64,000 nt of DNA, from the NCBI RefSeq assembly GCF_003334335.1, contig NZ_QOWQ01000013.1, one strand, 5' to 3'. Shown piece by piece: positions 63,570 to 64,000 of this stretch (position 1 is its first letter; every line of letters begins with the position of its first letter). Source of the DNA: Escherichia coli. GTDB lineage: Bacteria; Pseudomonadota; Gammaproteobacteria; Enterobacterales; Enterobacteriaceae. Made by a program: the position numbers and the translations under genes. Under the pieces are notes generated by a model. That model searched no databases. It was not told where the DNA came from and saw only the letters and a list, made by a program, of their open reading frames with translations.

Positions 63570-63767
63570 TCACCGGTTCTGGTGCAGAAGCTGCAGATGA
63601 CGCAGGGTACGGACATCCTCCCGGGCCTGTTCGATACAGGGCAACAGTGCTGCTGAATCCGTTTTATCCTCATCGTTGTCAAAGATAATTCCCGATCCGC
63701 AGTCGATATTGTCCTGCAGCCACGCAATCAGAATATCCAGCGCTGTTTCCGTGGTTAATGATTTCAT
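63570..63767 (-). CDS. Hypothetical acidic small protein in prophage-like context
   Basis: 65-aa ORF MKSLTTETALDILIAWLQDNIDCGSG... starting 11 nt downstream of the stop of the preceding minus-strand ORF (operon-like arrangement). Confidence 0.4.
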   Translation of the reverse strand: MKSLTTETALDILIAWLQDNIDCGSGIIFDNDEDKTDSAALLPCIEQAREDVRTLRHLQLLHQNR

Positions 63768-63778
63768 GTTGTTCCTGG

Positions 63779-64000
63779 TTACCAGTCGAAAGTGGGTAAA
63801 CCCGGCAGGCATTCAGCGCTGGCATCCAGATGAATGAGACTGACGCCATAACGCCGGATGAGTGTGACGACCAGACGACGGAACGTTTTTGACAGCCCCA
63901 GGCGTTTAAGCCGCAGAACCGGGTATGACCACGCATCGGTACGTAACAGATATCCGCTACCTGTGAAATGAATCCATTCTGATTCACCAACGTCACTGGT
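63779..64000 (-). CDS. Partial ORF of unknown function, 3' end only; 5' end beyond window
   Basis: Manual minus-strand translation is open from the window edge to TAA at 63779-63781: ...YLLRTDAWSYPVLRLKRLGLSKTFRRLVVTLIRRYGVSLIHLDASAECLPGLPTFDW. Confidence 0.3.
   Translation of the reverse strand, partial: TSDVGESEWIHFTGSGYLLRTDAWSYPVLRLKRLGLSKTFRRLVVTLIRRYGVSLIHLDASAECLPGLPTFDW

What the first reader, a model, noticed from the sequence alone, without database searches (positions are those of the whole stretch)
63570..64000. Operon-like pair of unidentified minus-strand ORFs entering the window from the right
A frame open from the window edge down to a TAA at 63779-63781 is followed 11 nt later by a 65-aa acidic ORF (MKSLTTETALDILIAWLQDNID...). 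This tight spacing suggests a two-gene module, a toxin-antitoxin pair or phage accessory genes being possibilities. I could not match either product to a family from memory. The six-frame track reports different overlapping frames here, so the true frame is uncertain.
Basis: inference. Interest (0 to 1): 0.35.

Follow-up and report, generated by a model that had tools for sequence, protein, structure and literature searches.

The report
Known DUF5983–DUF957 genes behind CbtA toxin
The two minus-strand ORFs are real, already catalogued but uncharacterised genes (DUF5983 and DUF957) that end the operon carrying the CbtA/CbeA toxin-antitoxin pair on a common E. coli genomic island, so the finding is ordinary.

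Summary
The reading "unidentified pair, perhaps a TA pair or phage genes" is only partly right.

**Identity.** The window edge cuts a 162-aa DUF5983 protein (Aec77/L0008/YeeW family). Its ATG overlaps the stop of a CbtA-family toxin gene. The 65-aa ORF is RefSeq WP_000839282.1, "DUF957 domain-containing protein" (Aec78/L0009).

**Real genes.** Both are under purifying selection (dN/dS 0.25 and 0.12; shifted frames 1.2–1.9). They end a co-directional operon closed by a conserved terminator.

**Distribution.** The block is in about 90% of complete E. coli genomes, at a median of 3 copies, in CP4-44-type islands.

**Not phage, not an obligate pair.** Only 1 of 50,697 phage records holds these genes. 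DUF5983 C-domains sit on about 2,650 plasmids and DUF957 domains on about 1,430, with different neighbours and no CbtA at the sites examined.

**Frameshift.** A published programmed-frameshift idea fails, because the heptamer and the relative frame are not conserved.

**Function.** Untested. My best guess is that they are accessory "establishment" proteins of mobile elements, with DUF5983 translationally coupled to the toxin.

**Verdict.** Already known; low interest.

The parts
63779..64000 (-). 3' part (last 73 codons plus TAA) of a 162-aa DUF5983-family gene (Aec77/L0008/YeeW family). In the 100%-identical proxy genomes the gene continues for 267 nt beyond the window edge.
   Evidence: Translation. 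Full length from L001 11734-12222 and from EC416. Pfam PF25638 (res 4-57) and PF19419 (res 69-162). dN/dS 0.25 overall, 0.16 for the C-domain.
63768..63778 (-). 11-nt intercistronic spacer ccAGGAacaac, with a Shine-Dalgarno-like AGGA 5 nt before the ATG.
   Evidence: Sequence. Spacer length is 11, 16 or 19 nt in E. coli paralogues and 29 nt in L014, with SD AGGA, AGAA, AAGGAG or none.
63570..63767 (-). 65-aa acidic protein gene, RefSeq WP_000839282.1 'DUF957 domain-containing protein' (Aec78/L0009).
   Evidence: Translation. Annotation in identical genomes. Cluster names. dN/dS 0.12. No hit in current Pfam-A.
63506..63542 (-). Intrinsic terminator that closes the operon: an 11-bp GC-rich stem with a 5-nt loop, then a T-run.
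   Evidence: Scan. MFE -20.8 kcal/mol, z -5.55. Present at the same place in all nine E. coli copies (one, L004, with a single stem mismatch) and in L014, there with a compensatory stem change.
63336..63485 (-). Remnant of the next island gene: the N-terminal ~50 codons of a DUF4942 gene. It is truncated here and abuts an HTH-regulator remnant at 63232-63360. It marks the decayed distal end of the island and is not part of the pair.
   Evidence: RefSeq pseudogene annotation in identical genomes. A full-length 843-846-nt DUF4942 gene sits at this position in L003-L008 and L010.

Best explanation
**What it is (shown).** The two ORFs are genuine, separately translated genes. They are the last two cistrons of the long co-directional operon that carries the type IV toxin-antitoxin pair cbeA(yeeU)-cbtA(yeeV), at the distal end of a CP4-44-type integrative island inserted next to nanS/fim.

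**DUF5983 (162 aa).** Its ATG overlaps the cbtA stop codon (ATGA), with a GGAG(G) inside the end of cbtA. Most likely it is made by translational coupling to the toxin.

**DUF957 (65 aa).** It starts 11 nt after the DUF5983 stop, from its own start codon. A conserved hairpin terminator then ends the transcript.

**What they do (inferred).** Neither protein is a toxin-antitoxin component in the strict sense. I read them as accessory 'establishment' proteins of conjugatively transferred mobile elements, of the kind that fill plasmid leading regions beside antirestriction, DUF932, methylase, PsiB and Hok genes.
- The basic, highly conserved DUF5983 C-domain is the working part. It probably binds a host macromolecule. 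Its invariant residues are H74, D79, G105, S126 and the terminal W162.
- The acidic DUF957 domain is a small helical partner that works with the acidic DUF5983 N-domain. In a common natural variant the two are fused.

Identity and gene organisation are shown here. Coupling, the protein partnership and the establishment role are inferred.
For: **Identity and context.** Identical DNA in E. coli EC416 and CV839-06 is annotated YeeU antitoxin - CbtA toxin - DUF5983 - DUF957. Pfam confirms DUF5983_N and DUF5983. Source names are given.

**Real genes.** dN/dS is 0.25 and 0.12, against 0.19 for CbtA and 1.2-1.9 for shifted frames.

**Coupling.** The ATGA overlap is present in 9 of 9 E. coli paralogues and read in L014. 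The same 4-nt overlap follows from the called gene coordinates in the divergent C-domain-only loci L016-L018.

**Operon end.** The terminator is conserved, with a compensatory change in L014, and is stable. No coding-strand promoter-like site lies inside the block. The K-12 transcription unit is listed as yeeRST-cbeA-cbtA-yeeW (PMC7660256), and upstream genes were judged to be in the same operon in CP4-6 (PMC5371832).

**Constant synteny at different insertion sites.** The order is antirestriction - RadC/JAB - DUF987 - antitoxin - toxin - DUF5983 - DUF957 - DUF4942.

**Leading-region homology.** On K. pneumoniae pJX10-2 the order is psiA...hok...DUF932-DUF5983-SLT/traM. On C. freundii pCf.1-1 it is psiB-psiA-hok-methylase-antirestriction-DUF957...DUF5983-DUF932-relaxase. 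About 2,650 plasmids carry DUF5983 and about 1,430 carry DUF957, mostly conjugative ones. Leading regions are enriched in anti-defence, methylase, SSB and TA genes, and a third of their top families are uncharacterised (PMC11541004).

**Partnership of the N-domain and DUF957.** Natural in-frame fusions of 137-140 aa exist; P0439 has 518 member sequences on 168 contigs. K-12 yeeW is a decayed copy of this type.

**C-domain as the core.** It occurs alone or behind other N-domains. It has sharp invariant motifs, the lowest dN/dS and a confident AF2 model with pLDDT 90-98.
Against: - No experiment on either protein was found in the searched literature, so the establishment or anti-defence role rests on guilt by association only. 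Neither protein matches any PADLOC, NCBIfam or solved-structure family.
- The very conserved overlap with cbtA could instead mean a direct functional tie to the toxin.
- The AF2 model of the natural fusion was unreliable (pLDDT 47). It gives no support for an N-domain/DUF957 interface.
- It has not been shown that these islands transfer by conjugation with this end leading.
Confidence: 0.55

Rival explanations
1. DUF5983, with or without DUF957, is a third component of the CbtA/CbeA system. It would be a modulator, second antitoxin, chaperone or the missing regulator of the toxin, produced in fixed ratio to CbtA through the overlapping stop and start codons.
For: - The ATGA overlap with cbtA is in 9 of 9 paralogues and in L014. 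The same 4-nt coordinate overlap is seen in the C-domain-only loci L016-L018.
- A TA survey scored CbtA/DUF5983 as a recurrent 'TA structure', always downstream of the toxin, in all sequence types except ST11 (PMC10790755).
- Neither CbtA nor CbeA autoregulates the operon, so a regulator is missing (PMC5371832).
Against: - About 34%-identical DUF5983 C-domains sit on about 2,650 plasmids. At the plasmid sites examined there is no CbtA, and the neighbour is DUF932.
- In K-12 the yeeW/DUF957 region is decayed by a stop codon and an internal deletion. CbtA toxicity and CbeA rescue were nevertheless established in K-12 (PMC5624674 and PMC5371832, listed).
Confidence: 0.25
2. One reading: the two ORFs are a self-contained two-gene toxin-antitoxin module, for example DUF5983 as toxin and the small acidic DUF957 as antitoxin.
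For: - The spacing is tight, 11-29 nt.
- The second product is small and acidic.
- The two co-occur constantly in E. coli islands.
- A natural fusion of the DUF5983 N-domain with DUF957 suggests contact between them.
Against: - DUF5983 C-domain genes occur without any DUF957 in L012 and L016-L019.
- DUF957 occurs apart from DUF5983, or with DUF3085 instead.
- Plasmid host profiles differ sharply. DUF5983 is mostly in Klebsiella; DUF957 is mostly in Escherichia, Salmonella and Enterobacter.
- One locus has DUF957 annotated as frameshifted beside an intact DUF5983. This is a single assembly and could be a sequencing error.
- The common fused variant lacks the conserved C-domain altogether.
- There are no PADLOC or NCBIfam TA or defence hits.
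Confidence: 0.1
3. The 65-aa ORF is not an independent gene. Either it is a spurious call, or it is the C-terminal part of a DUF5983 fusion made by programmed -1 ribosomal frameshifting. A 2026 paper raised the frameshift idea for AntiFam entry ANF00264, which lies downstream of DUF5983.
For: - In the window the 65-aa frame is -1 relative to DUF5983. The 31-nt overlap holds G_GGT_TTA in the right phase.
- Some database entries fuse DUF5983 with the downstream sequence (PMC13294457; P0438).
- Current Pfam-A has no model for the 65-aa protein.
Against: - The heptamer is not conserved. Other copies read GGACCAG, GGGGTTC and GGATTTA.
- The spacer is 11, 16, 19 or 29 nt, so the relative frame is -1 in some copies and +1 in others.
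- The DUF5983 frame is conserved to its own terminal FDW, and W162 is invariant.
- dN/dS for the 65-aa ORF is 0.12, lower than for CbtA.
- Lengths in the protein collection are overwhelmingly 65 and 162 aa.
- The long 95-200-aa calls are over-extensions into the shifted frame.
Confidence: 0.03
4. They are phage accessory (moron-like) genes of a prophage.
For: - The K-12 copy lies in the element called 'cryptic prophage CP4-44'.
- There is a weak PHROG hit to the C-domain (phrog_5003, unknown function, E 7.7e-7).
- Pfam text quoted in PMC13294457 calls DUF5983 'likely phage derived'.
Against: - tblastn of both proteins against 50,697 phage records hits one 3.2-kb unannotated fragment only.
- The annotated part of the island seen in EC416 has no phage structural genes. 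An inovirus Gp2 family protein is the only phage-named product. The island does hold Ag43, a GTPase, DUF932, antirestriction and RadC genes.
- Homologues are abundant on conjugative plasmids.
Confidence: 0.03

Closest known systems
DUF5983 family: Aec77 (APEC island AGI-3), L0008 (EHEC), SRL-PAI orf54, E. coli K-12 YeeW
   Same: - The upstream ORF is a full member. It has both Pfam domains, and the same protein accession (WP_000777548.1) is annotated in two identical genomes.
- It holds the same position, directly after cbtA with an ATGA overlap.
   Different: K-12 YeeW is not the same architecture. It is a decayed copy of the fused N-domain-linker-DUF957 variant and lacks the conserved C-domain. 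The window copy is the split, two-domain form.
DUF957-domain proteins: Aec78, L0009, SRL-PAI orf55; about 100-aa plasmid versions
   Same: - The 65-aa ORF is an exact RefSeq DUF957 protein.
- It shares the core L-x-I-L-x-x-W-L-x-D-N ... I-I-F-D ... L-P with plasmid proteins at 41-49% identity.
   Different: - Plasmid versions are longer and have other neighbours: antirestriction and HTH genes on pCf.1-1, DUF3085 on IncHI plasmids.
- The current Pfam-A library no longer matches the family.
CbtA/CbeA (YeeV/YeeU) type IV toxin-antitoxin system
   Same: Same operon and immediately adjacent. DUF5983 is apparently coupled to the toxin's translation.
   Different: - Neither ORF has a CbtA_toxin or CbeA_antitoxin domain.
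- Both families exist without CbtA elsewhere.
- The TA pair was characterised in K-12, where these two genes are decayed.
Leading-region 'anti-defence / establishment' islands of conjugative plasmids (Samuel & Burstein 2024, PMC11541004)
   Same: - Homologues of both proteins lie in plasmid leading regions among psiB, psiA, hok, antirestriction, methylase and DUF932 genes, close to traM or the relaxase.
- The chromosomal island carries the same companions, all co-directional.
   Different: - No anti-defence activity has been shown for either family, and that paper does not name them.
- The window copy is chromosomal, in an island whose transfer mode is not established here.
AntiFam ANF00264 ('spurious, frameshifted phage proteins'), questioned in PMC13294457
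   Same: It is described as lying directly downstream of DUF5983 beside cbtA/cbeA, either separate or fused, and as predicted to be a confident globular homodimer. That is the position of the 65-aa gene.
   Different: Identity could not be tested, because AntiFam is not among the tools. ANF00264 might instead model the shifted-frame translation across the DUF5983 3' end. The paper's programmed-frameshift idea is not supported by my data.

Membership tests
DUF5983 (Pfam PF25638 + PF19419) | Significant match to both family HMMs. | tested here: met
   PF25638 E 1.2e-28 (res 4-57). PF19419 E 6.5e-22 (res 69-162, model 3-90 of 90) on the full-length protein from the identical genome. The 73 residues inside the window are the C-domain.
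DUF5983 (Pfam PF25638 + PF19419) | Conserved family motifs of the C-domain: S-T-A-H, W-I-H, G-Y-L, L-K-x-x-G-L-S-K-x-x-R and terminal F-D-W. | tested here: met
   Curated alignment of 30 sequences. H74, D79, G105, S126 and W162 are invariant, and all are present in the query.
DUF957 (RefSeq name; Aec78/L0009) | Sequence identity or similarity to proteins carrying that name. | tested here: met
   The exact sequence is annotated WP_000839282.1 'DUF957 domain-containing protein'. The cluster has 1,689 members with that name. There are 502 and 986 homologues.
DUF957 (RefSeq name; Aec78/L0009) | Match to a Pfam-A model. | tested here: not met
   No Pfam-A hit even at E<=10. No precomputed Pfam domain covers the DUF957 stretch of any homologue. 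The family name therefore rests on an older model that is not in the library used here.
CbtA/CbeA type IV toxin-antitoxin system | CbtA_toxin (PF06755) or CbeA_antitoxin (PF06154) domain. | tested here: not met
   Only DUF5983 domains are found in the upstream ORF and none in the 65-aa ORF. The toxin and antitoxin are the two genes further upstream.
Toxin-antitoxin pair (generic) | The two genes travel together as an obligate pair. | tested here: not met
   DUF5983 occurs without DUF957 in L012 and L016-L019. DUF957 occurs without an adjacent DUF5983 in L020, L022 and L023. Plasmid host profiles differ.
Toxin-antitoxin pair (generic) | One product is toxic and the other neutralises it. | not testable with these tools
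   This needs controlled expression. No report was found in the literature searched.
Programmed -1 ribosomal frameshift fusion | Conserved slippery heptamer in phase, and a constant frame relation between the two ORFs. | tested here: not met
   GGGTTTA is present in 4 of 9 E. coli copies only (5 of 9 with the L006 variant GGGTTTACCT). The frame offset is 2 in six copies and 1 in three.
Plasmid leading-region establishment / anti-defence genes | Location in the leading region next to oriT/relaxosome genes, co-directional with known anti-defence genes. | tested here: met
   This is met for the plasmid homologues (L019, L020). The window copy has the same companion genes and orientation, but on a chromosomal island with no oriT identified.
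Plasmid leading-region establishment / anti-defence genes | Demonstrated inhibition of a host defence or SOS function. | not testable with these tools
   No experimental data were found. There are no PADLOC hits, and PADLOC covers defence rather than anti-defence.
Glyoxalase / bleomycin-resistance (VOC) fold, as assigned to DUF5983 in bioRxiv 10.1101/2024.01.30.577995 | Significant structural similarity to VOC-fold structures. | tested here: not met
Phage gene | Presence in phage genomes. | tested here: not met
   1 of 50,697 phage records, a 3.2-kb unannotated fragment. One weak PHROG hit of unknown function.
AntiFam ANF00264 | Match to the AntiFam HMM. | not testable with these tools
   No AntiFam library was available. 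The only evidence is the positional description in PMC13294457.

The most novel reading that the evidence does not exclude
DUF5983 and DUF957 are a widespread, so far unrecognised functional module of Enterobacterales mobile elements. Two versions of this reading remain open. In the first, it is a new anti-defence or establishment factor that acts early after transfer, with the DUF5983 C-domain as effector and DUF957 as an acidic dimeric partner or mimic. In the second, it is the missing third component or regulator that controls when the CbtA toxin is unleashed. Either version would also make the AntiFam 'spurious' label for the downstream protein wrong, if ANF00264 is this family.
Probability: 0.25. 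Interest if true: 0.55.

Novelty: already known. Interest (0 to 1): 0.2.

Why it matters
As a scan finding it is ordinary. Both proteins are exact RefSeq entries in named families, and their position after cbtA has been noted in island descriptions, a TA survey and a 2026 paper.

What remains open is function. Homologous DNA is in about 90% of complete E. coli genomes, typically at three places. Relatives sit in the leading regions of thousands of conjugative plasmids, including clinical Klebsiella plasmids. Yet no experiment on either protein turned up in the literature I searched.

My analysis adds three small points of use to annotators:
- The 65-aa ORF is a real gene under strong purifying selection. 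It is not a spurious or frameshift-derived call.
- The programmed-frameshift proposal does not hold.
- K-12 yeeW is a decayed N-domain-DUF957 fusion and not a typical DUF5983 gene.

Tried and rejected
1. **Programmed -1 frameshift.** I noticed G_GGT_TTA in phase in the 31-nt overlap. I rejected the idea after aligning nine paralogues plus L014. The heptamer and the relative frame are both variable.
2. **'44%-identity' relative P0300/L011.** It is an artefact of an assembly of C->T converted reads, with S->F, A->V and R->W/C changes. I discarded it. I also excluded chimeric or frameshifted representatives (P0150, P0383, P0293, P0278) from the alignment.
4. **Structure of the natural N-domain-DUF957 fusion.** I used it to look for an interface. 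Mean pLDDT was 47, so it is unusable, and I ran no fold search on it.
5. **Family libraries.** NCBIfam and PADLOC gave no hits. PHROGs gave one weak family of unknown function. The PDB sequence search gave nothing meaningful; the only hit was a designed repeat protein at E 0.007.
6. **Rfam** on 63000-64000: no match.
7. **Promoter scan** of the operon: no coding-strand site above background.
8. **Identity of AntiFam ANF00264** with the 65-aa family could not be settled from the paper text.
9. **Not run.** I did not run the genome contigs or metagenome scans. The plasmid, AFDB and E. coli results already gave the taxonomic range (Enterobacterales).
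Full report
**1. Observation.** On the minus strand a frame is open from the window edge (64000) to TAA at 63781..63779. It encodes ...TSDVGESEWIHFTGSGYLLRTDAWSYPVLRLKRLGLSKTFRRLVVTLIRRYGVSLIHLDASAECLPGLPTFDW*. Eleven nucleotides later (ccAGGAacaac) an ATG at 63767 opens a 65-codon ORF that ends at TGA 63572..63570. A terminator-like hairpin follows at 63542..63516. It folds at -20.8 kcal/mol, z = -5.55, and none of 200 shuffles fold as well. The description is accurate to the base.

**2. What lies beyond the edge.**
- A 701-nt query across the region matches 4,890 of 5,426 complete E. coli genomes, at a median of three places per genome.
- Five genomes are 100% identical over that query. 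E. coli EC416 is 100% identical over window 59000-64000 and is the best proxy for the source genome.
- In EC416 and in CV839-06 the open frame is the 3' part of a 489-nt gene for a 162-aa 'DUF5983 family protein' (WP_000777548.1).
- The 65-aa ORF is WP_000839282.1, 'DUF957 domain-containing protein'.
- Directly upstream lie a CbtA-family toxin gene and a YeeU/CbeA-family antitoxin gene.
- Before those come DUF987 (YeeT), a RadC-like JAB protein (YeeS), an antirestriction protein, DUF932, DUF905, IrmA, a YeeR-like protein, Ag43 and a GTPase. All are on one strand. This is the CP4-44-type island layout.
- Pfam confirms DUF5983_N (res 4-57, E 1.2e-28) and the DUF5983 C-domain (res 69-162, E 6.5e-22).
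- The 65-aa protein has no hit in the current Pfam-A, and no precomputed Pfam domain covers the DUF957 stretch of any homologue.
- Source names for the two proteins include Aec77/Aec78. The SRL pathogenicity-island table equates orf54 with L0008/YeeW and orf55 with L0009/DUF957 (PMC6980539).

**3. Are they real genes, and in which frame?** I fetched eight further E. coli paralogues at 87-94% DNA identity. I computed pooled Nei-Gojobori statistics on seven of them plus L001, omitting L005 because its DUF957 is annotated as frameshifted.

| Gene | dN/dS, annotated frame | dN/dS, shifted frames | Variable columns by codon position |
|---|---|---|---|
| CbtA | 0.19 | 1.16-1.19 | 23/21/53 |
| DUF5983 | 0.25 | 1.28-1.60 | 27/29/78 |
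| DUF957 | 0.12 | 1.72-1.94 | 8/8/23 |

Within DUF5983 the values are 0.29 for the N-domain, 0.73 for the linker and 0.16 for the C-domain. The competing ORFs in the six-frame list are not.

**4. The frameshift idea.** A 2026 paper notes that AntiFam entry ANF00264, labelled 'spurious, frameshifted phage proteins', lies directly downstream of DUF5983 beside cbtA/cbeA. The authors report a confident predicted homodimer and suggest a programmed frameshift (PMC13294457).
- In the window the 65-aa frame is -1 relative to DUF5983 and is open only from 63812. That overlap contains G_GGT_TTA in phase.
- The heptamer is not conserved. Other copies read GGACCAG, GGGGTTC and GGATTTA.
- The spacer is 11 nt in six loci, 16 nt in one, 19 nt in two and 29 nt in L014. 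The relative frame therefore differs between copies.
- DUF5983 is conserved to its own terminal F-D-W, and W162 is invariant.
- Protein lengths in the collections are overwhelmingly 162 and 65 aa.
- The 95-200-aa 'DUF957' calls are over-extensions into the shifted frame across the DUF5983 3' end. This is possible only in copies with the 19-nt spacer.

I reject the frameshift fusion. Whether ANF00264 is the 65-aa family could not be tested.

**5. Operon anatomy.**
- The DUF5983 ATG overlaps the cbtA stop (ATGA) in 9 of 9 E. coli copies, with GGAG(G) a few bases upstream.
- The overlap is also read in L014, which is 61% identical. The called gene coordinates give the same 4-nt overlap in L016-L018, where DUF5983 is a C-domain-only protein of 111 aa. 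This is the classic arrangement for translational coupling, which is an inference here.
- DUF957 has its own start. The Shine-Dalgarno sequence varies: AGGA, AGAA, AAGGAG or none.
- The terminator hairpin is present in all copies, with a single stem mismatch in L004. The loop varies, and the stem shows a compensatory change in L014 (GCCAGCC/GGCTGGC to GCCAGTC/GACTGGC).
- No coding-strand sigma-70-like site lies within the block.
- The K-12 unit is listed as yeeRST-cbeA-cbtA-yeeW (PMC7660256). The genes upstream of the CP4-6 TA pair were judged to be in the same operon (PMC5371832).
- No Rfam family matches the region.

**6. Distribution and context.**
- The order antirestriction - RadC/JAB - DUF987 - antitoxin - toxin - DUF5983 - DUF957 - DUF4942 recurs in islands at different chromosomal sites: cadC, tRNA-Ser, yghD/gsp, setC, and nanS/fim here.
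- Phage records essentially lack both genes. The only hit among 50,697 records is a 3.2-kb unannotated fragment.
- A roughly 34%-identical C-domain-only DUF5983 is on about 2,650 plasmids, of which 2,305 are from Klebsiella and 2,169 are conjugative. On K. pneumoniae pJX10-2 it lies between DUF932 and the SLT/traM genes, downstream of psiA and hok.
- On C. freundii pCf.1-1 a 100-aa DUF957 protein follows a methylase and an antirestriction gene. A 189-aa DUF5983 lies 1.2 kb further on, next to DUF932 and the relaxase.
- DUF957-domain genes are on about 1,430 plasmids, mostly from Escherichia, Salmonella and Enterobacter.
- On IncHI plasmids the DUF957 gene sits 4 nt upstream of a DUF3085 gene, with no DUF5983 in the 10-kb stretches fetched.
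- An HMM of the DUF957 alignment finds no copy in L012 or L016-L019.

The two families are thus modular. They are neither bound to each other nor to CbtA. Leading regions are known to concentrate anti-defence, methylase, SSB and TA genes, and a third of their top families are uncharacterised (PMC11541004). By AFDB and plasmid hits, DUF5983 is confined to Enterobacterales. The deep representative search found only 223 clusters at 50% identity among 1.84 billion representatives.

**7. Architectural variants.** DUF5983 relatives come as N+C (162 aa), C-domain alone (about 100 aa), another N-domain plus C (185-189 aa), and one with an insert of about 85 aa. A common E. coli variant of 137-140 aa fuses the DUF5983 N-domain through a linker to DUF957 and lacks the C-domain. 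P0439 has 518 member sequences on 168 contigs. K-12 yeeW is a decayed copy of this fused type, with a stop codon in the linker and an internal deletion in DUF957. The fusion is the only direct hint that the N-domain and DUF957 work together.

**8. Structure.**
- AF2 on the curated alignment gives a confident DUF5983 C-domain (pLDDT 90-98) with the order beta-alpha-beta-beta-alpha-alpha-beta. The N-domain is less sure, at 62-75.
- The VOC assignment published for a Salmonella member (bioRxiv 10.1101/2024.01.30.577995) is therefore not reproduced at significance.
- AFDB50 returns only family members.
- The model of the natural fusion is unreliable (pLDDT 47). It only suggests a helix, then IIFD, then a long helix for DUF957.
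- The C-domain is basic (pI 8.7). The N-domain and DUF957 are acidic (pI 4.4 and 4.5).

**9. Mechanism.**
- *Shown:* identity, coding status, frames, gene order, the conserved overlap and terminator, and the modular distribution.
- *Inferred:* translational coupling to cbtA; partnership of the N-domain with DUF957; a role as accessory establishment proteins of conjugatively transferred elements, with the C-domain as the effector.
- *Main rival:* DUF5983 modulates or regulates CbtA. The conserved overlap favours it, as does the reported lack of autoregulation by toxin or antitoxin. Against it stand the CbtA-free plasmid copies and the decayed K-12 locus, in which the TA pair was nonetheless characterised.
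- A stand-alone TA pair, a frameshift fusion or spurious ORF, and phage accessory genes are each unlikely, for the reasons above.

**10. Comparison and verdict.** The pair belongs to the known but uncharacterised families DUF5983 (Aec77/L0008/YeeW) and DUF957 (Aec78/L0009). Their placement after cbtA is already recorded (PMC6980539, PMC10790755, PMC13294457).
- Novelty: already known.
- Interest: low (0.2).
- Residual interest lies in the untested function of a very widespread module and in the likely mislabelling of the small protein as spurious.

Noticed in passing
window 63232-63485 (-): Directly after the terminator lie two abutting gene remnants: the first ~50 codons of the DUF4942 gene (63336-63485) and the tail of an HTH regulator (63232-63360). 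In intact islands a full 843-846-nt DUF4942 gene sits here. One record calls it 'restriction endonuclease subunit M'. The island's distal end is therefore decayed in this genome.
   Followed up: partly
window 61638-62288 (-) and ~62425-62574 (+): An intact 216-aa HNH endonuclease gene lies next to a fragment annotated as 'phosphorothioated DNA-binding restriction endonuclease'. This looks like the remains of a defence locus between the island end and nanS.
   Followed up: no
window 60623-61630 (+): The NanS (sialate O-acetylesterase) ORF looks full length in the window (335 aa from a TTG). RefSeq annotation of the 100%-identical EC416 marks only a 345-nt partial pseudogene (equivalent to window 60872-61216). 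This may be an annotation inconsistency.
   Followed up: no
L011 (Logan SRR18740011), protein P0300: This 'distant homologue' (44% identity) is an artefact. The contig was assembled from C->T converted reads, so every protein on it shows S->F, A->V and R->W/C changes. Such entries contaminate the representative protein library and can mimic deep divergence.
   Followed up: yes
P0439, P0420 and relatives; L002 3441-3770 (K-12 yeeW): A common E. coli variant fuses the DUF5983 N-domain through a ~25-residue linker to DUF957 (137-140 aa) and lacks the conserved C-domain. K-12 yeeW is a decayed copy of it, with a stop codon in the linker and a deletion inside DUF957. K-12 is therefore a poor reference for this gene pair.
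   Followed up: yes
L022 4974-5778 (S. Typhi pHCM1); L023 4974-5781 (E. coli pXH988_1, IncHI2): On IncHI plasmids a ~102-aa DUF957-domain gene is followed 4 nt later by a DUF3085 gene, within a run of small co-directional hypothetical genes. These include an HNH endonuclease and DUF6012. It is a second recurrent partner for the DUF957 domain.
   Followed up: partly
L015 1582-2325 (protein P0284): This is a 247-aa DUF5983 variant with an insert of about 85 residues between the N- and C-domains. The insert includes a C-P-D-C motif. The gene follows cbtA after a 13-nt gap rather than an overlap.
   Followed up: no
L012 (plasmid CP024639.1) 1920-5417: A 188-aa DUF5983 relative with a different N-domain sits between a DUF4034 gene and a Tlde1-domain gene (an L,D-transpeptidase-type effector domain). 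It lies near DUF932 and an IncFII RepA gene, with no CbtA nearby.
   Followed up: no
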